Shown: positions 1-12,116, counted from the first letter of the stretch. The stretch: DNA of 64,000 nt from a virus (IMGVR_UViG_3300036761_001580:69198-133197); one strand, 5' to 3'. Made by a program: numbers and translations. Notes: generated by a model from the letters alone, not told the origin.

Positions 1-291
1 GCAGAGGTCCAGGCCGCGTCCGACACAGCCTTGGCGAACCACGACTCTTGGGGTGCAGAGGACTACGAGTCCTATTCACGCTTCATCAAGCCGAAGCTGG
101 AAAACGCGGAGTACAATGTAGAGTGGGCAGGCAAGCTCATCGTGGATCGGGAACGCGAGATCAATCGTGTCAAGAAGATGATGAAGACGTACTTCAGTGA
201 AGAGTGGACCTTCCCCCAGGAAGACCCCTACCGGAAGTTCCTCGAAGACGATCTCGCTTCGGCACCCTCCGAAGAAAACGAAGACCTCTAA
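1..291 (+). CDS. C-terminal fragment of a hypothetical protein (ORF enters from upstream of window)
   Basis: Open frame from nt 1 to TAA 289-291; GC3-rich; acidic tail ...SEENEDL. Confidence 0.45.
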   Translation, partial: AEVQAASDTALANHDSWGAEDYESYSRFIKPKLENAEYNVEWAGKLIVDREREINRVKKMMKTYFSEEWTFPQEDPYRKFLEDDLASAPSEENEDL

Positions 292-299
292 GATCCCTC

Positions 300-820
300 C
301 AAGGTCAACCCTGTAGATCGCACGATCCCCAAGGTTCCAACCTTGAAGGGCCCGAGGTCCCCGGGTTCCTCAACCCTCTTCCAACCCTCCTTCAAGGTTC
401 CCCAACCCTACCTTCAAACCTTCAACCCTACCTTCAAAGGTACCTTCAAACCTTCCCCAAGGTAGGGTTCGACTCGACCGGGTTCGACAACCCTACCTTG
501 ATCCCCTCAACCCTCCTTGACCTCCTTCGATCCCCCCAGACCGAGATCGCGATCCCTATTTTCCCCTGGGGGCCCAACCCCGGGTACCTTTGGTTCAAGG
601 TTCAGCTGAAGGGTTGCTGAAGGTCCAACCCTGCCTTGCCCTGGGGTTGGGGTAGTCTTGGGGAAGGTTGAAGGGTACCTTGAACCTTGAGGGGCCGCTG
701 GCAGCAAGGGGTTCCGTCTGAAGGGTCTAGGGTTCCTCCAGCCACCCTTTGGAAGGTTCGGTCGACCTTGGGGCCCGGGGGATCGGCCGGGCTCGGGCAA
801 CCCTACCTGTACCATAGGAG
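300..820. repeat. Iteron-like array of 13-15 bp motif AACCCT(A/C)CCTT(C/G)AA in both orientations (>=10 copies)
   Basis: Copies at ~383, 404, 424, 489, 509, 626, 799 (direct) and ~342, 459, 667 (inverted); no coding potential. Confidence 0.6.
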
Positions 821-894
821 GGGACCCAAACCTTGGCCGGATCTAGAAGCCAGGGTCCTTTTTGGGCAGGGTTGTAGGGGAAAAAGGGGACCCG

Positions 895-1000
895 GAATTT
901 CCCGGAAAAATTATTCAATGATTATGGGTATTTGTAAGGTATAGGATGGGACCCGAAAGATATTCGGGAAATGTAGACCACCTCCGTATATGTCGGCAGC
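895..1000. promoter_or_regulatory. AT-rich stretch between iteron array and GATC cluster (DUE-like)
   Basis: Local GC drops sharply (gaaaaattattcaatgattatgggtatttgtaaggtatagg) in a ~63% GC genome. Confidence 0.4.
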
Positions 1001-1500
1001 AGCCCCCGATCTCCAGAGATCGCGCGATCTAGCACGCGATCCGATGGAGATCGCGCAATCTCCCCCGATCTCCCCCGGCCTCCCCAATCCATCGGCCGAT
1101 CTCCGCCCGTACCCGGCGCAACCCTGGCCCGGCCTTGCCAAGCCCACGTAATCATTGGCTAATCTCTACCAACATGTGCGAGCGCCGGCCGATCCATCGG
1201 GCTCGCGCTCAGGTACATCGATTGTGGTTCAAGGTGGGCGGAGATCGGCGAAGGTCCGGGCGGCCCGACAGGGGCCAAGACTGGCCCATGCTCGGCCAAG
1301 GTTGGCCGATCTCGGCCGACTCTTGATGTAGATTGGGGGAGATCATCGAGGGTTGACGGAGGGTTGCGCGATCTCTAGGCGGGGTCGATGGAGATCGCGG
1401 GATCGAGGGTTGGATGTGGCATGTGTTGTGACCTTTTTGCGAGGTACGCAAAGATTGCGCGATCTCTGTCGGGCATGGATGAGATCGTGGGGCTGACCTG
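1000..1500. repeat. GATC-dense cluster with repeated GGAGATCGCG / CGCGATCTC motifs in both orientations
   Basis: ~18 GATC in ~480 bp; motif copies near 1015, 1045, 1240, 1335, 1364, 1392, 1455, 1482. Confidence 0.55.
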
Positions 1501-1639
1501 TCGAGCCTTGCCTATAGTTGCCTACATCTCCCCCCTCCCCCTACGTCCACCCCTAACCGATCCAAATGATCCAAGATTCCCCCATAATCTGTATCTCTTA
1601 CCTATCACCCCGATCTCCCCCTCGTGCCGAGATTCACCG

Positions 1640-1700
1640 GCCCGGTATGGTCACGTATGGTCATGACCATACATGTATGGTCACAGAGACCTATAGCTAT
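1640..1700. repeat. Cluster of GTATGGTCA / TGACCATAC direct and inverted repeats
   Basis: tatggtcacgtatggtcatgaccatacatgtatggtcac seen directly; operator-like. Confidence 0.45.
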
Positions 1701-1809
1701 ACAGTGGCATGGTATAGCTAGAGCCTCGGCGAGTAGTCAAGATCTAAGCCTGTCTCCTATAGGCTTGTCGAGGCTCGCGGAGCGCCGCCGTAGGACTGTC
1801 CCTTGGCCT

Positions 1810-2050
1810 TCCCCCTGGTAGGGGGTAGGGCACCCATTCGGGACGGCTGGCGAGCCTACCAGGGGGCTTGTCTAGGGTTGTCGGGATCTCAGGGTTGCGG
1901 CCTACCTTGGGCGAGGGCTCGGCGAGGGTTGCCGGGATCTGTCGAGGGTTGCCCACGACCTGCGGAAACCATACCCCCGTGGGCGTGCCTGGTACCCTAC
2001 CAGGGAAGCAACCTACCGGGGGAGGGGTACAGCCTGGTAGATGGTACAGT
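1810..2050. repeat. CCTGGTAG / CTACCAGG inverted-repeat family, including a 13-bp perfect inverted repeat (~1811-1862)
   Basis: ccccctggtaggg ... ccctaccaggggg; further copies near 1990, 2013, 2033. Confidence 0.45.
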
Positions 2051-2168
2051 CTACCTTTCCCCCCTGCCCCTTGCGGCGAGGCTAGAGATCTCCCCCTTCA
2101 TCTTTGTTTTGGACGGGTCGAAGGTTGGGGTGGTTGAAGGTGGTTGACTGTAGGTGGGGGAAGGTTAG

Positions 2169-2453
2169 CTAGGTGTGCACTCCCCACCTCGGATCGCTGG
2201 CACCGTAGAAGATCGCGCCGCCGTTGAACCAAACCCGGCCGCCCTTCTCCATGACGAAACTGAACGACTGCGGGGCGAAATCCTTGTAGAGCTTGCAGAT
2301 CGTAACGTCCGGCTCGCCGTGATCCCTCGCATCGCTGTTTGCGTACCCGTCGAGGTAGTCCAACACCTCGCGGAGCTTATCCCCGATCCCGTTCTCCTCC
2401 GCGAAGGTTCGAACCTTCTCGAAATGTTCCTCGTTCCTGATTTCCAGTGCCAT
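2169..2453 (-). CDS. hypothetical protein (94 aa)
   Basis: GC3-rich ORF; RBS GGAAGGTG upstream of ATG; last gene of the leftward early arm. Confidence 0.6.
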   Translation of the reverse strand: MALEIRNEEHFEKVRTFAEENGIGDKLREVLDYLDGYANSDARDHGEPDVTICKLYKDFAPQSFSFVMEKGGRVWFNGGAIFYGASDPRWGVHT

Positions 2454-2490
2454 GGGTTCACCTTCCCCTTGTTTGCGGTCCCCGATCTCC

Positions 2491-2520
2491 CCGGTGTAGT
2501 CCGGTGTAGTCCGGTGTAGT
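2491..2520. repeat. Tandem repeat 3 x ccggtgtagt upstream of 2169..2453
   Basis: Perfect 10-bp x3 tandem copies seen directly. Confidence 0.7.
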
Positions 2521-2930
2521 TACGCGGCGCACACCTCCCCGTCCATGTCGACGGTGCGGTCCGTGCCGTCCTCGATGCACGCCAGGGTGTACGAGTCGCG
2601 AGCGCGGCGGGCGGCCTCGCGGCGACCCTTGTCCTCGGCGGCGATCTCGACACCCATGATCGCCAGGTCCCTCGCATCTACCAGGGCCGCGACCTCGGCC
2701 TTGCACCGGTCCACCACCGCGACGGCGCGGGCCACCTCGGAGGGGTGCGCCAGGTGCCGCACGACTTCGTTGATCTGCCCCGTCGCCCGGTCCACCTCGA
2801 CGCGCCGGACGGTCTTGTCTACCGTGGACAACTGCCGCACCGCGAGCGCGAGGTTCGACTTGGCCTTGTCGATCTTCCGGTTGTAGGTGTCCGCGATGAT
2901 CTTGATCTGGGGGTTGATCTTGGTCGCCAT
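2520..2930 (-). CDS. hypothetical protein (~136 aa)
   Basis: ORF 2520..2939; ATG at 2930 has GGAGGTG RBS 7 nt upstream; GTG 2939 is an alternative start. Confidence 0.6.
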   Translation of the reverse strand: MATKINPQIKIIADTYNRKIDKAKSNLALAVRQLSTVDKTVRRVEVDRATGQINEVVRHLAHPSEVARAVAVVDRCKAEVAALVDARDLAIMGVEIAAEDKGRREAARRARDSYTLACIEDGTDRTVDMDGEVCAA

Positions 2931-2966
2931 GTCTCGCACCTCCGTGGGTTTTTCTGCTACCCTCCC

Positions 2967-2995
2967 AATGTAACCACCCGCAAAGGGCGGTCAAG
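2967..2995 (-). promoter_or_regulatory. class A promoter cassette (minus-strand read: cTTGACc-N16-TACATTgggg)
   Basis: -10 aatgtaacc 2967-2975, -35 gtcaag 2990-2995 (revcomp). Confidence 0.55.
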
Positions 2996-2998
2996 GGT

Positions 2999-3283
2999 CT
3001 AGCCGCTCTTTTTCCAGGCGGCGCTCCGGTCCTTTGGTGTCACCGTCAAGGGGTCGAAACCGTATTCCTTGGCGGTACGATTCAACAGTTCCAACCTCTC
3101 GCGCGCCCTCTCGGTTCCGGCCTTGATCTCCGCGATCCACTCGTCTCCCGGATCGTCGTCACACAACCTTTCCGCCATGGCGATCAATTCAGGCTCACGA
3201 TTGATTCGAAAGATCGCATCGTTCCGCCTGTCGAACCAAGCCGCTCCGAGTCTCCCGTCCTTTTTGACCCAAGGCCTACCCAC
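2999..3283 (-). CDS. hypothetical protein (~94 aa, GTG start)
   Basis: Track ORF 2999..3367 overlaps upstream gene; GTG 3283 follows the upstream stop and an AGGGGCGGG RBS. Confidence 0.4.
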   Translation of the reverse strand: MGRPWVKKDGRLGAAWFDRRNDAIFRINREPELIAMAERLCDDDPGDEWIAEIKAGTERARERLELLNRTAKEYGFDPLTVTPKDRSAAWKKSG

Positions 3284-3293
3284 CGGCCCGCCC

Positions 3294-3605
3294 CTAATCC
3301 GCGCAACCGGCCGACTGTACCGCGATCTCGCGGCGGACGTTGGCGAGCGCCCGCGCCAGGATCTCATGCTCGCGCGGCGAGTAGGACGCGCCCGACAGGA
3401 GATCGACGAGCGCCCGGACGATCCACGACTCCCGGACGACGGCGGGCTTGTCCGCCGCGATGCACTCGTGCGCGAAGCGGGAGATCTTGACGATCCTGTC
3501 CTCGGCCGTCTCGACGGCGCGGGCTTTCTGCTTGGCGAGGTTGATCTGCTTGGCCGTCTTCTTGTCCTCGACCTTGACCCTCGCGATCTCCATCAGCTTT
3601 GCCAT
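3294..3605 (-). CDS. hypothetical protein (103 aa)
   Basis: ATG 3605 with GGAAAGGGG RBS directly downstream of a class A promoter. Confidence 0.6.
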   Translation of the reverse strand: MAKLMEIARVKVEDKKTAKQINLAKQKARAVETAEDRIVKISRFAHECIAADKPAVVRESWIVRALVDLLSGASYSPREHEILARALANVRREIAVQSAGCAD

Positions 3606-3651
3606 GTTGCGCCCCTTTCCGTTGCGGCCGTTCTCTTTCCCCTACCTCCCC

Positions 3652-3680
3652 AATATAACCATCGGTTTCGGCCGGTCAAG
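3652..3680 (-). promoter_or_regulatory. class A promoter cassette (-10 variant TATATT)
   Basis: aatataacc ... gtcaag; stop codon of 3676..3921 lies inside the -35. Confidence 0.5.
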
Positions 3681-3921
3681 GGGTGGACCGGTCGATTCCC
3701 CACGACTCTTTAACCATCCGATCCAGATCGAAAACACTGTCCGGGATCGCCCCTTTCCGCCCCAAGAGATTCCGCGCCATGGCCGTGGTTCCGTTTGCGT
3801 ACCAAACCGTAACGGTCCCGGAGCGCCGGATCGAAACCTGCAACACTCCGATCAAGGCCGCGACGAACGACGGCGGGACGATGACTTGAACCATACCGCG
3901 CTCGATCTCGTTGACGTTCAT
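3676..3921 (-). CDS. hypothetical protein (81 aa)
   Basis: Internal ATG 3921 with GAGGGGG RBS; upstream part of track ORF is just the promoter repeat read in frame; C-term ...GIDRSTP. Confidence 0.5.
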   Translation of the reverse strand: MNVNEIERGMVQVIVPPSFVAALIGVLQVSIRRSGTVTVWYANGTTAMARNLLGRKGAIPDSVFDLDRMVKESWGIDRSTP

Positions 3922-3959
3922 TCGGTCCCCCTCGGTTGCGGTCGTTGCCTCTCCCACCC

Positions 3960-3988
3960 AATCTAACCACCGGCTAGCGGCGGTCAAG
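3960..3988 (-). promoter_or_regulatory. class A promoter cassette (-10 variant TAGATT)
   Basis: aatctaacc ... gtcaag. Confidence 0.5.
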
Positions 3989-4004
3989 GGGTCGAGCGGT
4001 CGAT

Positions 4005-4643
4005 TTACCACCCGCGCACGACCTTCCGGTACTCATAGCGCGCGTGATCCGCCGTTTGGCCGCTCACCGCCTCATTCTCGCCCGCTGTCGTCATGGAGAT
4101 CGCGCCCGTTTTGTTCCGCTTCATGAAACCGCCCGCGACGAGGTTATCGATCTCTTCCGTCGTGACACCATACTCTTTCAACGCTTCGAGGCGATACGCG
4201 CCGCCCTTCGTACCCCGGACCGTTCCGAGAATGACCCTCTGACGCTCGGAAAGCTCGGCCTTGGCCGGGAGTAGGGGCGCGAGCGCCGCCGGGTTTACGC
4301 GGATCGTGGCGTACACCGGACGCCCGCCACCTTTGTGGCCCGTAATGACCGCGCCGTTTTCCGGGATCGGGTAATCCGCCCGGTCGTTGTCGACGGCGTT
4401 GCGTGGGTTAAACATGTTCGGACCGCCCCACGATCCCCACGTTGTGCGATTCTCGCCCGTCTCCAGGTTGACGACGGTCGCGAAAGCCTGGTATCCGTCG
4501 CCGCCCGCACTACTCAGGCTCGCCGTTTCGGCTGGCATAACGTCGATGCTTTTCCGCCCGTACCCCACGGAAGCGAGCGCCCTTTGAAGCGCCGCCGGAA
4601 GCTCTTTCACGTCCACCGCGATCCTGCCGTTGTCGAATGCCAT
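4005..4643 (-). CDS. hypothetical protein (212 aa)
   Basis: GC3-rich; ATG 4643 with GGGAGGG RBS downstream of a class A promoter. Confidence 0.7.
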   Translation of the reverse strand: MAFDNGRIAVDVKELPAALQRALASVGYGRKSIDVMPAETASLSSAGGDGYQAFATVVNLETGENRTTWGSWGGPNMFNPRNAVDNDRADYPIPENGAVITGHKGGGRPVYATIRVNPAALAPLLPAKAELSERQRVILGTVRGTKGGAYRLEALKEYGVTTEEIDNLVAGGFMKRNKTGAISMTTAGENEAVSGQTADHARYEYRKVVRGW

Positions 4644-4681
4644 GGGTTAGCCCTCCCGGTTGCGTTGCTTGCCTATCCCCC

Positions 4682-4710
4682 AATGTAACCACCGGCTAGC
4701 GGCGGTCAAG
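4682..4710 (-). promoter_or_regulatory. class A promoter cassette
   Basis: ccccaatgtaacc ... ggtcaagggg. Confidence 0.55.
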
Positions 4711-4761
4711 GGGCGGGCCGGTCGATTCTGCCCACCTCGCCGGAGGGCTCTAGTTGCCCCG

Positions 4762-4905
4762 CTAGCCGGCGAGCGCCCGGAGAACCCACCGGAGGGCCGC
4801 CGCGAGCTTTCCGGCCGCCCTGGTGCCGGTGGGGGCCTCGCCGCAACACCTTTTCAGCTTGCGGCCCGATCCGCACGGACAGGGATCGTTGCGCCCCGGT
4901 TTCAT
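4762..4905 (-). CDS. small SEC-C-motif zinc-binding protein (47 aa)
   Basis: [23 protein letters not shown] matches the SEC-C metal-binding motif; ATG overlaps upstream stop (tagATG); below 60 aa so absent from ORF track. Confidence 0.45.
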
Positions 4906-5040
4906 CTAGAGCGCCTCGTATTCGACCTTTGCGAACGTGACCCTCGCCCGTTGCAGGGACGTGTCGATTCCGAGAATCGTGTACACGTCGAGCATGGCAA
5001 GCTCGACCATGAGACGACGGGCCGCGCGATCTTTCGCCAT
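4906..5040 (-). CDS. hypothetical small protein (44 aa)
   Basis: ATG 5040 with AAGGAGAA RBS after a class A promoter; rest of 336-aa track ORF is an Arg/Ser-rich frame artefact. Confidence 0.45.
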   Translation of the reverse strand: MAKDRAARRLMVELAMLDVYTILGIDTSLQRARVTFAKVEYEAL

Positions 5041-5102
5041 GTGAAATTCTCCTTGTCGTGGGCGGATAGTCGGGCCGCCCGTTGCTTGTCTCGCCTTGCC
5101 CC

Positions 5103-5131
5103 AATGTAACCACCGGGGTGCGGCTGTCAAG
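5103..5131 (-). promoter_or_regulatory. class A promoter cassette
   Basis: ccccaatgtaacc ... gtcaagtgcc. Confidence 0.55.
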
Positions 5132-5134
5132 TGC

Positions 5135-5434
5135 CTAGCTTGCAAACCTTTCGAGGTGCGACTCGACGCCCAAGGCTTTCCCCTTGCGGCGGATCGCCTC
5201 GCGTTGCATATCATCGACGAGGGCGACCATAGCCGCGCCGTCGAACCTCCCCGCGCCGTGTCTCCGGTTGCACTCCAGGTCGACGAGGTCACCGCTACCC
5301 TTCTCGAATTGCGCCCATACGTTCCGCAAGCCGTGCAAGCCGGAACAAGGCCATGAATCCATGAACCCCTCGATCTCGTCTTCTCCGAACGAAACCGAGT
5401 AGAGACTGCCGTTATCGTAAACGCGGATCGCCAT
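5135..5434 (-). CDS. hypothetical protein (99 aa)
   Basis: ATG 5434 with GGGAGGG RBS; track N-terminus MVTLGRWG is the promoter repeat read in frame. Confidence 0.6.
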   Translation of the reverse strand: MAIRVYDNGSLYSVSFGEDEIEGFMDSWPCSGLHGLRNVWAQFEKGSGDLVDLECNRRHGAGRFDGAAMVALVDDMQREAIRRKGKALGVESHLERFAS

Positions 5435-5468
5435 GTCGCCCTCCCGGTTGTTCGCTCCCCACCTCCCC

Positions 5469-5497
5469 AATGTAACCACCGGCTAACGCCGGTCAAG
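5469..5497 (-). promoter_or_regulatory. class A promoter cassette
   Basis: ccccaatgtaacc ... ggtcaagggg followed by GGCCCGGTCGATTT upstream element. Confidence 0.55.
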
Positions 5498-5519
5498 GGG
5501 TGGCCCGGTCGATTTCCGA

Positions 5520-6005
5520 CTACTCGGCCGCAAGCTCCGGGTACCGCTCGATCTTGCGTTGCCGGTCCTCCTCGATCTCGCGGGCGCGTATCGGCGCGAC
5601 GTGGGCGAGCCAACGCTGATGGGACGCCTCGGCCTCGGCGCGTCGGCGGTTGTCCTCGCGCGTCCTCGCGGCCTTCCACGCGGCGGCGCTCCGGGGGCTG
5701 GCGTCCTCGCTGGCGCGCTTTGCGGCGGCGAGCGCCCCGGTGCGGCTGGCGTACCCCTGGAAAGTGCCGGGAGTCGTGACCGCGCCCGTCTTCCGGTTGA
5801 ACCGTCGAACGGTGAACCGGCGCGAGCATGGGATTACCTTCCCGCCGCACGGACCCCGGAACCGTTCCGACGTCACGAAAAAGCATCCGCCGGGACCGTC
5901 GAACGCATCGAGGCACACGCGGGAGTCGAAGAACCGCATAGAATCCTTGTCGAAGAAATGACCCTTCGCGACCTTGCGGATCTCGTCAGTGTTGTAGAAT
6001 CTCAT
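5520..6005 (-). CDS. hypothetical protein (161 aa)
   Basis: ATG 6005 with CCGGAGGTG RBS; GC3-rich. Confidence 0.65.
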   Translation of the reverse strand: MRFYNTDEIRKVAKGHFFDKDSMRFFDSRVCLDAFDGPGGCFFVTSERFRGPCGGKVIPCSRRFTVRRFNRKTGAVTTPGTFQGYASRTGALAAAKRASEDASPRSAAAWKAARTREDNRRRAEAEASHQRWLAHVAPIRAREIEEDRQRKIERYPELAAE

Positions 6006-6038
6006 GCCGCACCTCCGGGGTTTTTCTTGCCTACCCCC

Positions 6039-6067
6039 AATGTAACCACCGGCTAGCGGCTGTCAAG
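6039..6067 (-). promoter_or_regulatory. class A promoter cassette
   Basis: cccccaatgtaacc ... tgtcaaggg. Confidence 0.55.
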
Positions 6068-6069
6068 GG

Positions 6070-6483
6070 CTAAACGCACCACCCGTCTTCGGCACCCCCG
6101 AAAGAGTTGTATGCACCCGTGCGCGGGGTGTGGATCTTGATCGCCGCGCCGCGCGGGTCACCGTTGAAATGGATCGACAGGCCGATCCGCTTGGCAAGCT
6201 CTTCGGCCTCGGCGCGGAGCTTGGCCTCGCGCCGTTCGTCGCGGAGCTTTCCCGCCTCGTCTTCGCGCCCCGTCCGCTCGTGGACGTAGCCGTTGCACTG
6301 GCGGGTGAAGATCGCGCGGAGCGCCCGCTCGATCCTTTCGAACGTGACGGTGTCCTCGACGGCGTTGAGAACCGCGAGCCGGATCTTGTTCTTTCGGACC
6401 GTGTGAAATTCGCTGTCTTTCGTCTCTTCCAAAACCGTCAACGCGGTACGAAGCGTCTCCATTGTGATCTTGGGCTCGTTCAT
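6070..6483 (-). CDS. hypothetical protein (137 aa)
   Basis: ATG 6483 with GGGGGAGGG RBS; upstream MVTLGQGT is the promoter repeat. Confidence 0.6.
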   Translation of the reverse strand: MNEPKITMETLRTALTVLEETKDSEFHTVRKNKIRLAVLNAVEDTVTFERIERALRAIFTRQCNGYVHERTGREDEAGKLRDERREAKLRAEAEELAKRIGLSIHFNGDPRGAAIKIHTPRTGAYNSFGGAEDGWCV

Positions 6484-6526
6484 GGCGTCCCTCCCCCGGT
6501 TGCGGTCGTTCGCTGTCCCTTGCCCC

Positions 6527-6555
6527 AATGTAACCACCGGTTGCGGGCTGTCAAG
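6527..6555 (-). promoter_or_regulatory. class A promoter cassette
   Basis: ccccaatgtaacc ... tgtcaaggg. Confidence 0.55.
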
Positions 6556-6557
6556 GG

Positions 6558-6731
6558 CTAGGGTGCGATCTCCTCGATGATCTTCGCCCTCTCGGCCTGG
6601 ACGTCGGCGAGGAATTCGGCCCGCGCCTCGCTCCTCGTGTAGTACAGGTACTTGCGCCGCACCAGATACCCGTTGACCCTCGCGGACAGTACCAGATACC
6701 CGTTGACCGTCTTTTCGACCGTGATCTTCAT
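6558..6731 (-). CDS. hypothetical small protein (57 aa) with internal in-frame 30-bp tandem duplication
   Basis: ATG 6731 with GGGGAGGAAACC RBS; duplication accagatacccgttgacc at 6661-6708 gives VNGYLV x2. Confidence 0.5.
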   Translation of the reverse strand: MKITVEKTVNGYLVLSARVNGYLVRRKYLYYTRSEARAEFLADVQAERAKIIEEIAP

Positions 6732-6762
6732 GGTTTCCTCCCCGGTTGCCGTCCCTTGTCCC

Positions 6763-6791
6763 AATGTAACCACCGGCTAGCGGCGGTCAAG
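6763..6791 (-). promoter_or_regulatory. class A promoter cassette
   Basis: cccaatgtaacc ... ggtcaagtgcc. Confidence 0.55.
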
Positions 6792-6798
6792 TGCCTGT

Positions 6799-7119
6799 CT
6801 ACCGGAAAAACTCGACGGTGCGGAGCCCTTCGATCTCCCGCACGGCGTCTTTGGCCTCGGCGCGGCTGTCCGCCCGGACGAACACCTCGACGGTACGATC
6901 CGCGTTGACCGCATGGTACAGGTTGGCGGGCATTCCCCAATACGCGCCGCCCGTGTCATAGCAACCGTCCACGAAGCGGAGACGGCGGAGGTGGAGCTTG
7001 CACGCGGGGCCGACGTTGTAGTACGTGGCACCTTTGTACTCTTCCGTGGGAATTCGGTTCCCGCGACCCATCGGAGCACCGTACTTACTGGAAACATTTG
7101 TGATCCCCGGATACGCCAT
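6799..7119 (-). CDS. hypothetical protein (106 aa)
   Basis: Internal ATG with GAGGGAAGGTG RBS; upstream track residues are the promoter repeat. Confidence 0.6.
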   Translation of the reverse strand: MAYPGITNVSSKYGAPMGRGNRIPTEEYKGATYYNVGPACKLHLRRLRFVDGCYDTGGAYWGMPANLYHAVNADRTVEVFVRADSRAEAKDAVREIEGLRTVEFFR

Positions 7120-7163
7120 GGTCCACCTTCCCTCGGTTGCGGCCGTTCGCTGTCCCTTGCCCC

Positions 7164-7192
7164 AATGTAACCACCGGCTAGCGACGGTCAAG
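7164..7192 (-). promoter_or_regulatory. class A promoter cassette
   Basis: ccccaatgtaacc ... ggtcaagggg + GGGCCGGTCGATTC upstream element. Confidence 0.55.
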
Positions 7193-7212
7193 GGGTGGGC
7201 CGGTCGATTCTC

Positions 7213-7677
7213 CTAGAACCACTCCCGCCCGGACATGGACACCGCGAGCGTCCCGTCCGCCCGGACGTTCGCCTCACGACCGAAAAAGAACTTCATGAGA
7301 CGGGCCTGGTTGCCCTTCTCGTCGTCGTCCGCCACCGGGGCCGTGGAAGTACGGGCCGGGGCCGGAACGGAGCTAGAAAGGCCACGCTCGCGCCGCCTGT
7401 CGGCGAGCGGCGGGTACTCCATGACGTTCCGGGGGTTCCACTCCCCCGCGCAGATGTAAGGTTCGTCCCCTTCCGTCTTCGTGTACGATACCGTGTCCTC
7501 GACTCGCCCTCTACGTCGGAGGTGTACCCCGTGGCACACGATAGCGACGATGGTAGCCGGAAGTGCGACAGCGCACCACATACAGATCCGGTGCCCGGTC
7601 GCGTCCTCGATCCCGTGTGTGGGGTACATATCGGTATCGATGCTTGTCGCCCCGCAACACTCGCAAGTGCCTATCAT
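7213..7677 (-). CDS. hypothetical Cys-rich protein (154 aa)
   Basis: GC3-rich ORF with several CxxC pairs; downstream of a class A promoter. Confidence 0.6.
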   Translation of the reverse strand: MIGTCECCGATSIDTDMYPTHGIEDATGHRICMWCAVALPATIVAIVCHGVHLRRRGRVEDTVSYTKTEGDEPYICAGEWNPRNVMEYPPLADRRRERGLSSSVPAPARTSTAPVADDDEKGNQARLMKFFFGREANVRADGTLAVSMSGREWF

Positions 7678-7722
7678 CGGAGTCTCCTTAGTTTGGGTGG
7701 GTAGTCGGCCCGCCTGGCTCCC

Positions 7723-7751
7723 AATGTAACGCTCGCTTTCATGCTGTCAAG
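7723..7751 (-). promoter_or_regulatory. class A promoter cassette (diverged spacer)
   Basis: cccaatgtaacg ... tgtcaagagg. Confidence 0.5.
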
Positions 7752-7754
7752 AGG

Positions 7755-8336
7755 CTAGCGCGAAAGCGCCTCGTACTCTTCCCACGTATCGTAACGGATG
7801 TAATCGTCGTGTTTCATCGGGCCGCACAACTTGTCGAACGTGGGGCGATCCCACAGGTTCGGATGGTGGCACGGGGCCGAGTCGCTACGGGACGTCTCTT
7901 TGAACCCTCGCCGCTCCATCTCCATGACGAACGCGGATTCGTTGTCGAACGTGAGCATCCCCCCTTCCAGGCCGCAAACCATGTACTTGAGCGGGGTGCC
8001 TACGTCCTCCGGGAAGAGCATCGCCTGGCCGCACCCGACGTCTTTCATCCAGTAGCCCGATCCGTCCGATGCGTACCACACGATCTCCAGAAGCGTGTTG
8101 TCCGCCTTCCGAATGATCGCGTGCAGGTTGTTCATGCCGTCGAACCACCCGCCCGACTTGACGAACGTCGTCACCACCTCGACCCTGAACCGGCTCACCA
8201 GGGCCGGAAGCGCCCGCTTGGCGAGCGCGAGGTGGTACTCGACGAACGACTTGGGCACCATGCCGCCCATGAGTGCCGACTTCTTCATGTCGTTGACGAC
8301 TTCGGCCGGAAGCGTGCCCTTCTCCCCGATGCTCAT
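7755..8336 (-). CDS. hypothetical protein (193 aa)
   Basis: GC3-rich ORF; RBS GAGGAGGAC upstream. Confidence 0.65.
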   Translation of the reverse strand: MSIGEKGTLPAEVVNDMKKSALMGGMVPKSFVEYHLALAKRALPALVSRFRVEVVTTFVKSGGWFDGMNNLHAIIRKADNTLLEIVWYASDGSGYWMKDVGCGQAMLFPEDVGTPLKYMVCGLEGGMLTFDNESAFVMEMERRGFKETSRSDSAPCHHPNLWDRPTFDKLCGPMKHDDYIRYDTWEEYEALSR

Positions 8337-8373
8337 GTGGTCCTCCTCGGTTGTTCGTTTCCCCTGGCTGGGA

Positions 8374-8402
8374 ATGTAACCACCGGTTTCAGGCTGTCAA
8401 GT
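8374..8402 (-). promoter_or_regulatory. class A promoter cassette
   Basis: gggaatgtaacc ... tgtcaagtgc. Confidence 0.5.
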
Positions 8403-8403
8403 G

Positions 8404-8541
8404 CTACTCCGGGTCAATCCCCTCCGCCGCTTCCACGAGGTCCTCGACAACCTCGTCCACCTCTTTCGACGTGAGGTCCTCCGGGGTTTCCAAGGCCGCC
8501 GCCGCGCGTCGGAGCAAGGCCGCGAGATCACGAGGCTTCAT
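8404..8541 (-). CDS. small acidic protein (~45 aa)
   Basis: ATG 8541 placed 5 nt after TAG of 8544..8789; the track's longer N-terminus overlaps the upstream gene. Confidence 0.4.
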   Translation of the reverse strand: MKPRDLAALLRRAAAALETPEDLTSKEVDEVVEDLVEAAEGIDPE

Positions 8542-8543
8542 GA

Positions 8544-8789
8544 CTACACCGTCTCCGGGTCGATCTCGACGGCGACCATCTTGTCCCCGTACTCGTCCAG
8601 GAGCTTCGCCAGATCGGACGCGAAGCGGACCGACGCCGACTCGTCGGTCATGCAAAACCGGACGCGCCCGTTGCGTATCGTGCGGACGACGACGTTGTGC
8701 ACCTTGGACCTATCCGAAAGCGTCTGCTCTTCCTCGTACAGATCAACGTGATCCGTGTGAACCGTATCCATGATCTTGAATCCGTCCAT
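8544..8789 (-). CDS. hypothetical protein (81 aa); first gene of leftward early arm
   Basis: ATG 8789 with ACGAGGAGGACAAC RBS directly downstream of the divergent class A promoter. Confidence 0.6.
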   Translation of the reverse strand: MDGFKIMDTVHTDHVDLYEEEQTLSDRSKVHNVVVRTIRNGRVRFCMTDESASVRFASDLAKLLDEYGDKMVAVEIDPETV

Positions 8790-8828
8790 GTTGTCCTCCT
8801 CGTTTGGTCGTTGCCCTGCCTACCGGGG

Positions 8829-8857
8829 AATGTAACCATGGGGAAAAGAGAGTCAAG
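8829..8857 (-). promoter_or_regulatory. class A promoter (leftward member of divergent pair)
   Basis: ggggaatgtaacc ... agtcaagcccc. Confidence 0.55.
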
Positions 8858-8861
8858 CCCC

Positions 8862-8889
8862 TTGACCTCCGAAAACCCGGTGTTACATT
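8862..8889 (+). promoter_or_regulatory. class A promoter (rightward member of divergent pair)
   Basis: ccccTTGACCtccgaaaacccggtgtTACATTgggg. Confidence 0.55.
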
Positions 8890-8930
8890 GGGGCAAGGCG
8901 GCCAGACTACCGCACAACAGGGAGGACGAG

Positions 8931-9155
8931 ATGGCGGATATGAAGTTCAAGAAAGAATGTATCACGAGGAGCGTTTGCCCATACTGCGGGAGTCGCAACA
9001 CGAAGGACGAGGGTGAAAGCCTCTATGAGGCAAACGAAGAGGACATCAAGCTGTACATCTGCGGGTGCCACGATTGCGGAAAGGAATGGCGCAACGTCTT
9101 CCGCCAGATCGACGTGATCGAGGGTGACGTGTACCCGGAGGTTGACGAGCCCTAG
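8931..9155 (+). CDS. small zinc-ribbon protein (74 aa); paralog of 12117..12329
   Basis: RBS GGGAGGACGAG-ATG; CPYCG...CGCHDCGKEW motif; conserved 5' leader. Confidence 0.65.
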   Translation: MADMKFKKECITRSVCPYCGSRNTKDEGESLYEANEEDIKLYICGCHDCGKEWRNVFRQIDVIEGDVYPEVDEP

Positions 9156-9159
9156 GCAC

Positions 9160-9187
9160 TTGACAGCCACTATCCTGTGGTTACATT
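9160..9187 (+). promoter_or_regulatory. class A promoter cassette
   Basis: cTTGACAgccactatcctgtggtTACATTgggg; leader near-identical to 8890-8930. Confidence 0.55.
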
Positions 9188-9228
9188 GGGGCAAGGCGGC
9201 ACGACTACCGCACAACAGGGAGGACGAC

Positions 9229-9411
9229 ATGGGAAAGAAGAAATCCAAGACGTTCGACGTCACGATCCGGGCAACGATCACGAAGACCATCACCGTCGAG
9301 GCCAAGGACGAAGACGAGGCCTGCGAGATCGCGCACGGGGAGTTCTCGGTGCTGAACGACGATGACCCCGAGGATTACGACGAGGAAACCGTCAACGTCG
9401 AAGAAGTCTGA
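9229..9411 (+). CDS. hypothetical small acidic protein (60 aa)
   Basis: RBS GGGAGGACGAC-ATG; GC3-rich. Confidence 0.55.
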   Translation: MGKKKSKTFDVTIRATITKTITVEAKDEDEACEIAHGEFSVLNDDDPEDYDEETVNVEEV

Positions 9412-9412
9412 C

Positions 9413-9610
9413 ATGACGAAACGAGCACAAAGGATAATCATCAGTCCCGAGCAAGAGGCCAGGGACGAGTACCTCTCGGCGCTCGCGACCTACCGGGAGG
9501 TCCGGCACGCGCCGGGCTCCGAGGACGAGGCGATCCGTGCCGTGCGAGCGGTCATGGATCGGGCCTATGACCTGTACGTCAAGACGTGCCACCCGAGGAG
9601 GGCAACATGA
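9413..9610 (+). CDS. hypothetical protein (~65 aa)
   Basis: ATG 3 nt after the previous TGA; GC3-rich. Confidence 0.5.
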   Translation: MTKRAQRIIISPEQEARDEYLSALATYREVRHAPGSEDEAIRAVRAVMDRAYDLYVKTCHPRRAT

Positions 9611-9861
9611 TCAAGAAGAAGCCGGAAGAGACGGGGATCGAGTTCCTCCGTCGTCTCGTAAGCGTGGCGAATTACACGAACGAGGAGGTGTTCGACGATC
9701 TCTCCGTCGAGGAGACGATCAAGCTCATCCGCGCGTGTTGGGATTCCGAGTTCGACATCTACGCAGACGCACTGTCGCCCAGCGAGAGGGCTTTCGCGGC
9801 GCGGACCGGTAAGCTGTCGAAGAAAGCCGTTGACCGGCTCAACAGCCTGTATGGGGACTAA
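9607..9861 (+). CDS. hypothetical protein (84 aa)
   Basis: ATGA overlap with upstream stop; RBS GAGGAGGG. Confidence 0.6.
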   Translation: MIKKKPEETGIEFLRRLVSVANYTNEEVFDDLSVEETIKLIRACWDSEFDIYADALSPSERAFAARTGKLSKKAVDRLNSLYGD

Positions 9862-9877
9862 AAGACCGCGCAACCCC

Positions 9878-9905
9878 TTGACACCCCGCAATCGATGGTT
9901 AGATT
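9878..9905 (+). promoter_or_regulatory. class A promoter cassette (-10 TAGATT)
   Basis: ccccTTGACAccccgcaatcgatggtTAGATTagggg. Confidence 0.5.
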
Positions 9906-9940
9906 AGGGGTACGAGGGCAACGCAACCGAGGAGGTCGAA

Positions 9941-10258
9941 ATGAGATCCGAAATGAAGAGTGCCGGACGCGCAGCGGCGGCCGTTCCGTTCGAGAAGGTG
10001 GAGCTGTCGAAGACGCTGGAAGCCGTGGCGTTCGTCCAGGTGTGCCTGGGGTGCGCTTACGACTCTCTCAAGTCGGGTGAGGTCGAGGACAACCCCGAGC
10101 CGCCCATGGACCTGGAGGGGATCGTGGAGGACATCAATCACGCTTGCGAGAAGCTCCAAAGGGAGATCCGCAAGCTCGACAGGAACACGCGCCTGGCGCT
10201 CGACATCGAGGTGGATCACACCTACGATCTCGTGCACCGCAACAGCCCGACGAGGTAG
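9941..10258 (+). CDS. hypothetical protein (105 aa)
   Basis: RBS GAGGAGGTCGAA-ATG. Confidence 0.65.
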   Translation: MRSEMKSAGRAAAAVPFEKVELSKTLEAVAFVQVCLGCAYDSLKSGEVEDNPEPPMDLEGIVEDINHACEKLQREIRKLDRNTRLALDIEVDHTYDLVHRNSPTR

Positions 10259-10269
10259 GGGAGGACGTC

Positions 10270-10545
10270 ATGAGCGGTTTCAATTGGGCAGGGTTCGTTA
10301 GCGTAATCCCCGAGGACATCACCCTCGTGGGCAACGCCAGGGGCAACATGAAGATCCTGGCGCAAGTCTTGGACGAGGGGTTCGAGGGCATGAAGCCGAT
10401 CTCCGAGGCGCGCAAGCGGGTGCTCGTGAGGAGCATCGAGAAGTTCACCATGGCGGCGACCGAGCTGAAACTGCTCTTGGAGGCGTTCTCCGCCGATCTG
10501 GAGTGCCGCGAGGCCGGGATCGACCCCACGGGCAACGAGGGCTAG
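10270..10545 (+). CDS. hypothetical protein (91 aa)
   Basis: RBS GGGGAGGACGTC-ATG; the track's upstream 42 aa are an Arg-rich artefact. Confidence 0.6.
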   Translation: MSGFNWAGFVSVIPEDITLVGNARGNMKILAQVLDEGFEGMKPISEARKRVLVRSIEKFTMAATELKLLLEAFSADLECREAGIDPTGNEG

Positions 10546-10563
10546 AAAGAGCCGAGTAGCCTC

Positions 10564-10591
10564 TTGACACCCCGCTAGGGGTGGTTACATT
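10564..10591 (+). promoter_or_regulatory. class A promoter cassette
   Basis: cctcTTGACAccccgctaggggtggtTACATTgggg. Confidence 0.55.
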
Positions 10592-10638
10592 GGGGATAGG
10601 CGGGATGACTACCCGCCGGCAACGACAAGGAGAACCCG

Positions 10639-11082
10639 ATGGACGAGAAGACGAAAATCCCGATGGATCTGCGGATCTTCATCGACGATGAGACGGAGTT
10701 CTACAACGGCATCCCGGACGGGGTGGGCAAGATCTTTTCGGCGCACCTCTTCGACGCGAACCTGGACGTGCACATCTGCTCGTTCCAGGCGAACAAGGAG
10801 TGCTACTACATCGGCCACACGTTCACCACGACGCGGGATATGACCGATGAGGAGCTGGAAGCGGCGGACGAGTACCTCCGGGAAGCGAACCGCGAGGAGC
10901 CGCGCGTCGACTACTTCGACGGCAAGATCAAGGGGCACCCCTATACGGTCGAGCCGCGCCCCAAGGCAGACGACCCCGAAGAGGCGCAGAGGCTTTACGA
11001 AGAGGTCATGGAGGAGCACATCGAGTACCTCGTCTGCAACTCCGAGACATGGGATTGTCTGGTCGGAAAGCCGGTCGAGTAG
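10639..11082 (+). CDS. hypothetical protein (147 aa)
   Basis: RBS AAGGAGAACCCG-ATG; leader stem-loop GGCGGG-atgACTAC-CCGCC. Confidence 0.7.
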   Translation: MDEKTKIPMDLRIFIDDETEFYNGIPDGVGKIFSAHLFDANLDVHICSFQANKECYYIGHTFTTTRDMTDEELEAADEYLREANREEPRVDYFDGKIKGHPYTVEPRPKADDPEEAQRLYEEVMEEHIEYLVCNSETWDCLVGKPVE

Positions 11083-11085
11083 CCC

Positions 11086-11113
11086 TTGACAGCCGCTCCC
11101 CGATGGTTACATT
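11086..11113 (+). promoter_or_regulatory. class A promoter cassette
   Basis: cccTTGACAgccgctccccgatggtTACATTgggg. Confidence 0.55.
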
Positions 11114-11147
11114 GGGGATAGGCGAGAAGAACAACGGGAGGGACATC

Positions 11148-11645
11148 ATGGACGCAAGGATGAAGGTCGCGAACGAGCTGAAGAAGGAGATCCGGCGATC
11201 CCTGGGCAACTACCCCAAGGTGACGAAGGTCGAGGTTCTCGGCCTGGAGAACGAGGGGCTCATGATCGCTGTCCGGTACCACACGACCGACGTCGTGAAG
11301 CTGTACCTGAACAAGGCGGGTTACGCGGTCATGTCGGTCGTGGTGACTTCGGGCGGGTGGATCTCGAAAACGACCGCCGAGCGGATCAACGCGGTGCTCC
11401 GCCACTTGAAGACGGGGTTCTTCGTGCGGTTCACCTACAAGCGGGAGACGTTCGCACGGGGCACCATGGGCCGCCAGATGGGCGACAGCCTGTACGACCA
11501 GAAGTTCACGCTCGTGGGACAGGGGATCGAGATGCCCTTCGAAGACGGGATGACGTTCAAGCGGGGCCGGGACGGGTTCAAGCTCACGTACCCCGGCAAG
11601 GCCGCGCAGAAGAGGCTCGCGAAGGTCGTCGTCGCGAAGAGGTAG
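11148..11645 (+). CDS. hypothetical protein (165 aa)
   Basis: RBS GGGAGGGACATC-ATG. Confidence 0.7.
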   Translation: MDARMKVANELKKEIRRSLGNYPKVTKVEVLGLENEGLMIAVRYHTTDVVKLYLNKAGYAVMSVVVTSGGWISKTTAERINAVLRHLKTGFFVRFTYKRETFARGTMGRQMGDSLYDQKFTLVGQGIEMPFEDGMTFKRGRDGFKLTYPGKAAQKRLAKVVVAKR

Positions 11646-11654
11646 GAGGACGCC

Positions 11655-12073: not shown

Positions 12074-12097
12074 CAGTCACTCAGGGATGGTTACATT
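12070..12097 (+). promoter_or_regulatory. class A promoter cassette
   Basis: cgcTTGACAgtcactcagggatggtTACATTcc. Confidence 0.5.
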
Positions 12098-12116
12098 CCA
12101 AGCAGGAGGGACGAAC

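What the first reader, a model, noticed from the sequence alone, without database searches (positions are those of the whole stretch)
300..1500. Origin-like architecture: iteron array, AT-rich segment and GATC/GAGATCGCG cluster in a 1.2-kb ORF-free region
From 300-820 there are at least 10 copies, in both orientations, of AACCCT(A/C)CCTT(C/G)AA. This is followed by an AT-rich patch (895-1000) and a 480-bp region with ~18 GATC sites, mostly inside GGAGATCGCG/CGCGATCTC repeats. Together these resemble theta-type origins (iterons + DUE + methylation-sensitive GATC) or a partition site. The phage encodes its own N6-adenine/N4-cytosine-type methyltransferase (39985..40689), but neither its recognition site nor its target base is known, so any link to GATC is speculative.
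Basis: partly seen in the sequence, partly recalled or inferred. Interest (0 to 1): 0.7.

Follow-up and report, generated by a model that had tools for sequence, protein, structure and literature searches.

The report
Conserved repeat-rich non-coding control region
A 1.9-kb gene-free stretch of an uncharacterised ~205-kb phage is a conserved DNA landing pad for several proteins: most likely a replication origin, but possibly a DNA-packaging or genome-end signal.

Summary
Window 292-2164 (1.87 kb) is truly non-coding. It carries at least five families of short repeats. CAACCCT-core iterons occur 19 times here out of 28 in the 64 kb, a 66-fold enrichment. Three invariant GGGACCC boxes bracket an AT-rich patch that is the least stable duplex in the window. 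A block of 16 GATC sites in about 480 bp follows, mostly GAGATCG heptamers in inverted pairs. Next come TATGGTCA operator-like repeats, and then reversed iterons.

Four relatives keep the same order. In one at about 67% identity, 11 of 16 GATC sites are conserved against 13% of other tetramers.

A second module (iterons, then an AT-rich stretch with an identical 17-mer, then a GATC cluster) lies directly upstream of the terminase genes in related genomes. A third iteron site also exists.

It is therefore a cis-acting, protein-binding DNA region, not an RNA or a gene. An iteron-type replication origin is the best single reading (about 0.4). A packaging or terminal-repeat-boundary site, like P1 pac or the T5 iss region, is about 0.27. 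A transcription-control hub is about 0.18. Neither is excluded.

GC skew, neighbouring genes and the phage methyltransferase give no support for the origin reading. No DnaA boxes are present.

The parts
292..2164 (.). Whole non-coding region (NCR1), lying between the stop of a 464-aa gene (+, ends 291) and the stop of a 94-aa gene (-, 2169-2453)
   Evidence: GC3 gene call. No coding signature. Aligns at 80-84% identity to L241, L247 and L249, and at ~67% over the centre to L243.
300..875 (+). Iteron array with CAACCCT cores at 306, 371, 382, 403, 423, 488, 508, 626, 798 (+) and 610, 868 (-). Best copies read CCTTCAACCCTACCTTCAA (403-437). The AAGGTACCTT palindrome lies at 437-446. Copy number varies among relatives.
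   Evidence: Indels in this stretch appear in alignment A2. The identical 17-19-mers ACCTTCAACCCTACCTT occur in the second module, L194.
821..954 (+). Three invariant GGGACCC boxes (821-827, 887-893, 948-954). Their spacing of 66 and 61 bp is kept in all five sequences.
895..965 (.). AT-rich patch and candidate DNA-unwinding element. It contains the 17-mer AAAATTATTCAATGATT (907-923), which is shared exactly with the second module.
   Evidence: Least stable duplex in 64 kb. Its sequence diverges faster than its flanks (62-68% identity vs 96-99%) while staying AT-rich. 17-mer.
1003..1490 (.). GATC / GAGATCG block with two sub-clusters (1003-1104 and 1304-1490) around a highly conserved core (1105-1303). 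The core contains AATCATTGGCTAATCTCT, GGCCGATCCATCGG and ATCGATTGTGGTTCAAGGT. Near-palindromes lie at 1015-1030, 1047-1062 and 1452-1467.
   Evidence: Large-scale dyad symmetry gives an ssDNA fold z = -7.0. Arms co-vary in L243.
1645..1684 (.). Four TATGGTCA/TGACCATA repeats, including the perfect 18-bp palindrome GTATGGTCATGACCATAC (1655-1672). Operator-like.
   Evidence: Seven copies in L243. The same motif cluster lies upstream of an HTH gene in the unrelated contig L248.
1349..1951 (-). Reverse-oriented iterons (AGGGTTG on the + strand) at 1349, 1360, 1406, 1874, 1891, 1925 and 1945. With the left array they point towards the centre.
1813..2005 (.). CCTACCAGGG/CCCTGGTAGG inverted repeats (1813-1822, 1855-1864, 1996-2005). 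They are absent from the distant relative.
1..291 (+). 3' end of a 464-aa gene (weak AstE/AspA-like match). It is a lineage-specific insertion at the left border and not part of the element.
   Evidence: It is absent at this position in L241, L247 and L249.
2169..2453 (-). Conserved right-hand neighbour, a 94-aa DUF4120-like protein of unknown function

Best explanation
Window 292-2164 is a conserved, non-coding, cis-acting DNA region on which several sequence-specific proteins assemble. It most likely serves as an iteron-type replication origin, or one of at least two such sites, of a ~205-kb phage.

Proposed mechanism:
- Inferred: a phage protein binds the helically spaced CAACCCT/ACCTT iterons at 300-870. 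A second factor binds the three fixed-spacing GGGACCC boxes. Together they load stress onto the AT-rich patch at 895-965 between the boxes, which is the easiest DNA to melt in the 64 kb.
- Inferred: the adjacent block of GAGATCG dyads (1003-1490) binds a dimeric protein and/or responds to adenine methylation at GATC, so controlling firing. The TATGGTCA palindromes act as an operator for a further regulator.
- Shown: the region is non-coding. The repeat families are real and enriched. Order and spacing are conserved. Selection acts on the GATC heptamers. A paralogous module exists.
- Not shown: which proteins bind, whether the DNA melts, or whether replication starts here.
For: - Iterons: 19 of 28 CAACCCT copies lie here (66-fold enrichment). 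Spacings cluster near multiples of ~10.5-11 bp (R = 0.42-0.51, p~0.01). In the distant second module L270, AAGGTACCTT iterons repeat at 21-22 bp, the classic two-turn spacing.
- AT patch: it is the least stable duplex of the window. Its composition is conserved but its sequence is not, as expected of an unwinding element rather than a promoter. Invariant boxes at fixed 66/61-bp spacing bracket it.
- GATC: 16-21 sites per ~490 bp against 1.5-1.9 expected in all five relatives. 11 of 16 sites are conserved in the 67%-identity relative, against 13% of other tetramers.
- Constraint: blocks of the region are 96-99% identical between relatives whose third codon positions are 87.5% identical.
- Recurrence: the same colinear module of iterons, 17-mer/AT-rich stretch and GATC cluster occurs at a second locus. 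Multiple origins and separate iteron control loci have precedent in T4 and in P1/F (own knowledge).
- DNA rather than RNA: fold signals are equal on both strands, and there is no Rfam match.
Against: - GC skew tracks gene orientation and does not switch here.
- No recognisable initiator, helicase, primase or polymerase gene flanks the region. The phage's proteins are mostly unrecognisable, so this absence is weak evidence.
- No DnaA boxes are present.
- The main iteron cluster (371-508) lies ~390 bp from the AT patch.
- Iterons occur at >=3 loci, which suits a multi-site binding protein as well as an initiator.
- The paralogous module lies immediately upstream of the terminase large-subunit gene, the canonical place for pac/cos.
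- Helical phasing is only modestly significant, and the sequences used are not independent.
Confidence: 0.4

Rival explanations
1. Packaging or genome-end element. The iteron, AT-rich and GATC module would be a terminase recognition and cleavage region (pac/cos-like), or the boundary of a long terminal repeat. It might include a T5-iss-like DNA-entry pause site. The small terminase would bind the iterons, and the GATC dyads would gate cleavage as in P1 pac.
For: - The paralogous module NCR2 lies directly upstream of a 187-aa gene, then a 262-aa helical CxxC protein in the small-terminase position, then a 96-aa gene, then the 753-aa terminase large subunit (phrog_17415, E = 6e-38).
- NCR1 has two GATC sub-clusters flanking a highly conserved ~200-bp core. 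P1 pac is laid out the same way (own knowledge).
- NCR1 abuts an ~11-kb block of ~30 small genes, each with its own sigma70-type promoter. This resembles the pre-early genes next to the T5 iss region.
[quoted passage not shown] Their order is conserved while neighbouring ORFs vary, there are several repeat regions, and an HNH endonuclease gene is inserted (10.1101/866236). NCR1 shows all of these features.
- The inward-pointing iteron arrays would suit protection or processing around a central cut.
Against: - NCR1 itself is not next to packaging genes. No terminase gene was recognised in the window, where the structural genes lie at ~46-64 kb.
- Contigs run through both modules. L269 and L271 start inside the NCR2 iteron array, but L194, L270 and L272 read through it, so no physical end is evident.
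- A pac or cos site is normally unique, whereas the iterons occur at >=3 loci.
- A cleavage site would be sequence-conserved, but the AT patch is not.
- The DnaA-box pairs that define T5 iss are absent.
Confidence: 0.27
2. Transcription-control hub or insulator. The region would separate the early gene block from the next transcription unit. It would carry operator arrays for several phage regulators and possibly a promoter for the leftward operon or for a non-coding transcript.
For: - The region lies exactly at the left edge of the early promoter zone. There are 18 TTGAC-N17-19-TACATT promoters in 2994-13360 and none in or left of the region.
- In L241, L247 and L249 a gene block transcribed away from the region starts at its left border, behind a conserved hairpin/TATATAT element.
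- TATGGTCA palindromes also occur upstream of an HTH regulator gene in an unrelated contig.
- Many 14-18-bp palindromes look like operators.
- NCR2 precedes the late (terminase) operon.
Against: - 1.9 kb and at least five repeat families is far more than promoters and operators normally need.
- The module has opposite polarity relative to the downstream genes at the two loci, and in NCR1 its 'downstream' side has no gene.
- The sequence of the AT patch is not conserved, which is unlike a promoter.
- No recurring promoter motif was found in the region.
Confidence: 0.18
3. Partition (centromere-like) or genome-organising site bound by a ParB/KorB-like protein at dispersed palindromic or iterated sites.
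For: Short repeats in both orientations occur at several loci. The 10-bp palindrome AAGGTACCTT is iterated in the same manner as dispersed KorB/ParB sites (own knowledge).
Against: No ParA, ParB or other partition gene was found in the window or the fetched flanks. There is no integrase or plasmid-maintenance gene. The gene content fits a lytic tailed phage (terminase, tail-like genes).
Confidence: 0.05
4. A long structured non-coding RNA gene, or several.
For: The alignment folds better than column shuffles in 1269-1486 (z = -5 to -8). Twelve predicted pairs keep pairing through double changes. One hairpin keeps pairing through a change to G-U (read from alignment A2).
Against: - Signals are equally strong on both strands, as expected of DNA dyads.
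- The covariation term is unfavourable at +9.9 kcal/mol.
- The region is built from short motifs repeated in both orientations.
- There is no Rfam family match, and no conserved promoter or terminator bounds a transcript.
Confidence: 0.05

Closest known systems
Iteron-type theta origins (phage lambda ori; plasmid-prophage P1 oriR with incA; pSC101, RK2, F)
   Same: Arrays of short directly repeated protein-binding sites at roughly one- or two-turn spacing. An adjacent, easily melted AT-rich segment. In P1 oriR, GATC-containing heptamers in the unwinding region. In P1 and F, a second, separate iteron cluster elsewhere on the replicon.
   Different: No sequence similarity to any of them. No recognisable Rep/O-type initiator gene next to it. 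No DnaA boxes. The main iteron cluster is ~390 bp from the AT patch. The region is 5-10 times larger and has further repeat families. The host is unknown, so Dam/SeqA-type control cannot be assumed.
Bacteriophage T5 injection-stop (iss) / left-terminal-repeat untranslated repeat regions (Davison, bioRxiv 10.1101/866236)
   Same: [quoted passage not shown] Their order is conserved among relatives while adjacent ORFs are replaced. Several repeat regions share modules. An endonuclease gene is inserted beside or between them. The region lies beside a block of the earliest-expressed small genes.
   Different: T5 iss is defined by position inside a 10-kb terminal repeat, by two-step DNA transfer and by eight paired DnaA boxes. 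Neither a terminal repeat nor two-step transfer is known here, and DnaA boxes are absent. There is no sequence or gene homology to T5.
Bacteriophage P1 pac site
   Same: Two clusters of GATC-containing short repeats flank a central region (own knowledge). A paralogous module here adjoins the terminase genes.
   Different: P1 pac is 162 bp, lies inside the small-terminase gene and uses TGATC(A/G) hexamers. NCR1 is not next to terminase genes, its repeat is GAGATCG, and no cleavage or methylation data exist.
Bacteriophage T4 multiple origins (oriE with iterons and RepEB; oriF/oriG promoter plus unwinding element)
   Same: A large lytic phage with several separate origin-like non-coding elements, one of them iteron-based (own knowledge).
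   Different: There is no homology. T4 origins are small and tied to identified promoters and proteins. Nothing equivalent is identified here.

Membership tests
Iteron-type replication origin | Multiple copies of a short repeat, locally clustered and far above chance | tested here: met
   19 of 28 CAACCCT copies fall in 1.87 kb, a 66-fold enrichment. The arrays are conserved in 4 relatives.
Iteron-type replication origin | Helical phasing of iterons (about 11 or 22 bp spacing) | tested here: inconclusive
   R = 0.42 at 10.5 bp and 0.51 at 11 bp, p~0.01, but the sequences are not independent. There is a clear 21-22-bp period only in the distant second module, L270.
Iteron-type replication origin | Adjacent AT-rich DNA-unwinding element | tested here: met
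   Positions 905-965 form the least stable duplex of 64 kb. AT-richness is kept while the sequence drifts. The patch is, however, ~390 bp from the densest iterons.
Iteron-type replication origin | Cognate initiator (Rep/O-like) gene encoded next to the iterons | tested here: not met
   Flanking proteins have no Rep, helicase-loader or winged-helix initiator matches in Pfam or PHROGs. The left neighbours differ among relatives. Detection is weak in this lineage.
Iteron-type replication origin | Replication actually starts there (skew switch or marker frequency) | tested here: inconclusive
   Cumulative GC skew follows gene strand with no switch at the region. Marker frequency is not testable with these tools.
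Dam/SeqA- or methylation-controlled origin (oriC, P1 oriR, Vibrio chromosome II) | Cluster of GATC sites under selection | tested here: met
   16-21 sites observed against ~1.7 expected. 11 of 16 are positionally conserved at 67% identity, against 13% for other tetramers.
Dam/SeqA- or methylation-controlled origin (oriC, P1 oriR, Vibrio chromosome II) | GATC-specific adenine methyltransferase in phage or host, and methylated sites | not testable with these tools
   The specificity of the phage methyltransferase (39985-40689) is unknown. The host is unknown. There are no methylation data.
DnaA-dependent origin / T5 iss | DnaA boxes TT(A/T)TNCACA, paired in T5 iss | tested here: not met
   No match at <=1 mismatch occurs in 292-2164. 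There are 22 in the window against 27.5 expected.
T5-type iss / terminal-repeat untranslated repeat region | [quoted passage not shown] | tested here: met
   compared with 10.1101/866236.
T5-type iss / terminal-repeat untranslated repeat region | Location in or at the edge of a long direct terminal repeat, with two-step DNA entry | not testable with these tools
   There are no reads or virion DNA. Contigs read through the region.
pac/cos packaging site | Position in or immediately upstream of the small/large terminase genes | tested here: not met
   This is not met for NCR1, whose neighbours are a 94-aa gene of unknown function and variable genes. It is met for the paralogous module NCR2 (terminase large subunit, phrog_17415, E = 6e-38).
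parS / plasmid centromere | ParA/ParB-type (or equivalent) genes in the element | tested here: not met
   None was found in 64 kb plus flanks by Pfam, PHROGs or NCBIfam.
Known RNA families (Rfam 15) | Covariance-model match | tested here: not met
   The only hit is a chance-level plant miRNA match (28 bits against a gathering score of 70). Nothing reaches gathering score in the region.

The most novel reading that the evidence does not exclude
One iteron-binding protein and one GATC-based switch would tie together two or three dispersed non-coding modules: one at the edge of the early genes (this region) and one in front of the terminase genes. The phage would then use a shared cis-code to couple DNA entry or replication initiation with packaging. 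This would be an iss/origin/pac hybrid system in a jumbo-phage lineage unrelated to T5 or P1.
Probability: 0.12. Interest if true: 0.7.

Novelty: new variant of a known kind. Interest (0 to 1): 0.42.

Why it matters
This ~205-kb phage lineage is almost entirely unannotatable. Most proteins have no Pfam or PHROG match, and only a handful of relatives exist among billions of database proteins. A well-delimited, conserved cis-acting region with defined motifs gives experimenters concrete handles: CAACCCT iterons, GGGACCC boxes, GAGATCG dyads and TATGGTCA palindromes. These can be used for pull-downs to find the initiator, terminase or regulator. They also support origin or terminus mapping, and the building of replicons or packaging substrates for jumbo phages, where origins and pac sites are largely unknown. 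Positional conservation of GATC heptamers across 33% sequence divergence makes methylation-dependent control directly testable with long-read data.

Tried and rejected
- INPHARED phage records (near, distant and protein modes) gave no match.
- The 464-aa left neighbour has only one partial homologue, which lacks synteny. P0001 could not be located on a contig.
- The bacterial-genome scan for paired iteron 12-mers hit only Microcystis 16-bp tandem repeats and one Bacteroidales MAG. I judged these coincidental because G+C content differs (42% vs 60%) and there is no other similarity. The host therefore remains unknown.
- The coding hypothesis was rejected.
- The RNA hypothesis was disfavoured.
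- HIP1 or cyanobacterial origin was rejected. GCGATCGC is absent because CGATCG is completely avoided.
- The idea that contig ends mark a physical terminus in NCR2 was rejected, because three of five contigs read through.
- A search for a recurring promoter (GTATATAT-type) in the region found nothing.
- The AF2 model of the 262-aa terminase-adjacent protein was too poor (pLDDT 55) for a fold search.
- Pfam, PHROGs and NCBIfam scans of the flanking and candidate replication genes were largely empty.
- No second repeat-rich region exists at the other edge of the early block, 13.3-17.3 kb.

Full report
**What the window is**

The window has no match in 50,697 deposited phage genomes by DNA or protein search. 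A protein flanking the finding is 100% identical to one on a 205,564-bp JGI contig. A Logan contig, L001, is identical to window 1-4708 and extends 4,966 bp beyond the left edge. Gene content is phage-like but very poorly annotatable:
- tail- and head-like large genes on the minus strand at 46-64 kb
- a tmRNA and a tRNA-Pro
- TnpB-like genes
- a protein with Major Vault Protein domains

The terminase large subunit lies outside the window and is recognised in relatives (phrog_17415, E = 6e-38).

**Checking the observation**

A GC3-based gene call leaves 292-2164 empty. This stretch lies between the stop of a 464-aa plus-strand gene and the stop of a 94-aa minus-strand gene.

The stretch does not code for protein:
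- Its longest stop-free run is 117 aa, shorter than in shuffled sequence (mean 154).
- Only about one third of the indels among relatives are multiples of 3.
- tblastx similarity to a distant relative appears in all six frames.

Its core, CAACCCT, is strikingly local, with 19 of 28 window copies in these 1.87 kb, a 66-fold enrichment. The copies are polar. Plus-oriented copies lie at 306-798 and 1119. Minus-oriented copies lie at 1349-1945. Two minus-oriented copies (610, 868) sit inside the left array.

The AT-rich patch (905-965, 32% G+C) is the least stable 40- and 60-bp duplex of all 64 kb.

The block 1008-1486 holds 16 GATC sites. The window mean is 4.6 per 500 bp, and local composition predicts about 1.7. 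The repeated unit is GAGATCG, mostly arranged as inverted pairs and 14-18-bp near-palindromes.

- three GGGACCC boxes at 821, 887 and 948
- four TATGGTCA copies, including a perfect 18-bp palindrome, at 1645-1684
- CCTACCAGGG inverted repeats at 1813-2005

**Relatives**

A neighbouring DUF7447 protein led to IMG/VR contig IMGVR_UViG_3300031952_000001 (211,982 bp; L241). There, window 299-2976 aligns at 83.6% identity. Homologues of the 94-aa neighbour and a motif scan of metagenomes added three more:
- L247 and L249, at about 80-83% identity
- L243, a much more distant relative at about 67% identity over the centre

The five-way alignment (A2) shows the same parts in the same order in every sequence: iterons, GGGACCC boxes, AT patch, GAGATCG block, then TGACCATA repeats.

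Third-codon positions of adjacent genes are 87.5% identical between the window and L241. Against that benchmark the region is a mosaic:
- Some blocks are more conserved than silent sites: 800-899 at 99%, 1300-1399 at 96%.
- Others turn over faster: the iteron array changes by indels, and the AT patch is 62-68% identical yet stays AT-rich.

The GGGACCC boxes keep their 66- and 61-bp spacing in all five sequences. In L243, 11 of the 16 GATC sites are conserved at aligned positions, against 13% of other tetramers in the same block. The cluster there has 21 sites. Conservation extends over GAGATCG.

The left border at about 299 is a hot spot of gene replacement. The window has the 464-aa gene, a 94-aa gene and an endonuclease. 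L241 has 141- and 179-aa genes. L247 and L249 have the endonuclease directly adjacent. L243 has a 292-aa gene.

**DNA or RNA?**

Sliding-window consensus folding gives its strongest signals at 1269-1486, but they are equally strong on both strands. As single-stranded DNA the central block folds with z = -7.0, which reflects large-scale dyad symmetry. RNAalifold keeps many pairs in L243, including 12 with double changes, for example CGCGATCTC/GAGATCGCG becoming GCCGATCTC/GAGATCGGC. The covariation term is nevertheless unfavourable. Symmetric half-sites bound by dimeric proteins would behave the same way.

No Rfam family matches. Short motifs repeated in both orientations argue for protein-binding DNA.

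**A paralogous module**

Another part of the 212-kb relative (L194 7298-8268) carries four phased copies of TTCAACCCTACCTT. These are followed by about 1 kb at 41-48% G+C that contains the identical 17-mer AAAATTATTCAATGATT (window 907-923). Then come 8 GATC sites in 175 bp, embedded in a different repeat, (G/A)GATC(C/T)TTCAG. The order and polarity match those in the window.

Further copies of this second module occur in L269, L271, L272 and the distant L270. In L270 the iteron is the palindrome AAGGTACCTT, repeated every 21-22 bp. That palindrome also occurs in the window at 437-446.

The module lies directly upstream of a 187-aa gene, a 262-aa all-helical CxxC protein, a 96-aa gene and then the terminase large subunit.

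A third gene-free stretch, in L249, carries four to five tandem copies of CAGCCAACCCTACCT.

**Context**

Eighteen sigma70-type promoters (TTGAC-N17-19-TACATT) with a conserved spacer precede the small genes between 2,994 and 13,360. None lies in the region or to its left. The region therefore bounds the early block. GC skew follows gene strand and does not switch here. No DnaA boxes occur. The methyltransferase at 39985-40689 matches only a PHROG family, and its specificity is unknown.

**Interpretation**

What is firmly shown is a conserved, non-coding, multi-protein binding region that exists in at least two paralogous versions.

The best single mechanism is an iteron-type origin, for these reasons:
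- phased iterons
- a composition-conserved, easily melted segment clamped between fixed-spacing boxes
- an adjacent GATC block under selection

This is the logic of lambda ori, P1 oriR and oriC. I give it about 0.4.

The strongest rival, at about 0.27, is a packaging or terminal-repeat-boundary element:
- The sister module sits where pac/cos sites sit.
- P1 pac uses two GATC clusters around a cleavage core.
- The T5 iss/terminal-repeat regions are a very close architectural match (10.1101/866236). They form a 1.6-kb untranslated maze of repeats with conserved order, variable neighbouring ORFs, an endonuclease insertion and adjacency to the earliest genes.

Contig ends do not reveal a physical terminus.

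A transcription-control hub (about 0.18), a centromere (about 0.05) and an ncRNA (about 0.05) are less likely, for the reasons given under each rival.

**Novelty**

By architecture the region belongs with known kinds of cis-acting phage DNA elements. It has no sequence relationship to any of them. It combines features of origin, pac and iss regions, it is duplicated in the genome, and it comes from an uncharacterised jumbo-phage lineage. I rate it a new variant of a known kind, of moderate interest.

Noticed in passing
window 2990-13400 (for example 3640-3700, 4650-4727, 5075-5134, 6503-6560, 7145-7192, 8334-8406 on the - strand; 9156-9232, 11080-11151, 12535-12576 on the + strand): Nearly every small gene in this block is preceded by the same 60-80-bp element, which contains a sigma70-type promoter with a conserved spacer: CCCTTGAC(A/C)GCCGCTAGCCGGTGGTTACATTGGGG. 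There are 18 strict matches, arranged in two arms that diverge at ~8.37 kb. It looks like an early 'host-takeover' module transcribed by host RNA polymerase.
   Followed up: partly
whole window: Several 6-bp palindromes are completely absent: CGATCG (0 vs 46 expected), CTCGAG (0 vs 42), GAGCTC (0 vs 39), GGCGCC (0 vs 20), CTGCAG (0 vs 17), AAGCTT (0 vs 15) and ACGCGT (0 vs 10). This is strong restriction-site avoidance. GATC itself is not avoided.
   Followed up: partly
window 30747-33485 (-): A 912-aa protein carries Major Vault Protein shoulder and repeat domains (PF11978 at E = 2e-29, plus PF17795 and PF17794). This is unusual in a phage.
   Followed up: no
window 34385-34750 (-) and 33554-33630 (-): The phage encodes a tmRNA (tag peptide ADADVIPFPKMAVPSLQRAA; Rfam 74 bits) and a tRNA-Pro(TGG).
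   Followed up: no
window 22787-23995 (-); L001 7771-9600: There are two TnpB/IS605-OrfB-like genes (402 aa and 609 aa) in the phage genome.
   Followed up: no
window ~299 (left border of the non-coding region); L001 4418-6782; L241 16400-17320; L247 618-1145; L243 13637-14515: The left border is a hot spot of gene replacement among close relatives. A 175-aa endonuclease VII/HNH-like gene sits beside it, or 2.4 kb away after insertion of a 464-aa AstE/AspA-like gene. A conserved hairpin, GGCTGTGTTATATATTCAGCC, marks the border in three relatives.
   Followed up: partly
L248 (JACCDR010848942.1) 100-230: The TGACCATAC/ATGTATGG repeat cluster also occurs ~280 bp upstream of a small HTH (excisionase/Fis-like) gene in a contig with no other similarity. 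This suggests the operator type is used beyond this phage group.
   Followed up: no
L250-L268 (Microcystis MAGs), e.g. L251 5220-5330: Microcystis genomes carry many dispersed tandem arrays of the 16-mer TCAACCCTACCTTGAA, which is identical to the best iteron copies here. This is probably coincidence, because G+C is 42% vs 60% and no other similarity exists, but it is unexplained.
   Followed up: partly
L249 6121-7029: A third gene-free stretch (~900 bp) lies 2.5 kb left of the region in one relative. It has 4-5 tandem copies of CAGCCAACCCTACCT, three CTCCTTGATCC repeats and ACCGCACC repeats.
   Followed up: partly
It matches only phrog_799 (E = 3e-23) and shows a faint TaqI-like catalytic-motif similarity in PDB. 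Its target sequence and target base cannot be assigned.
   Followed up: yes
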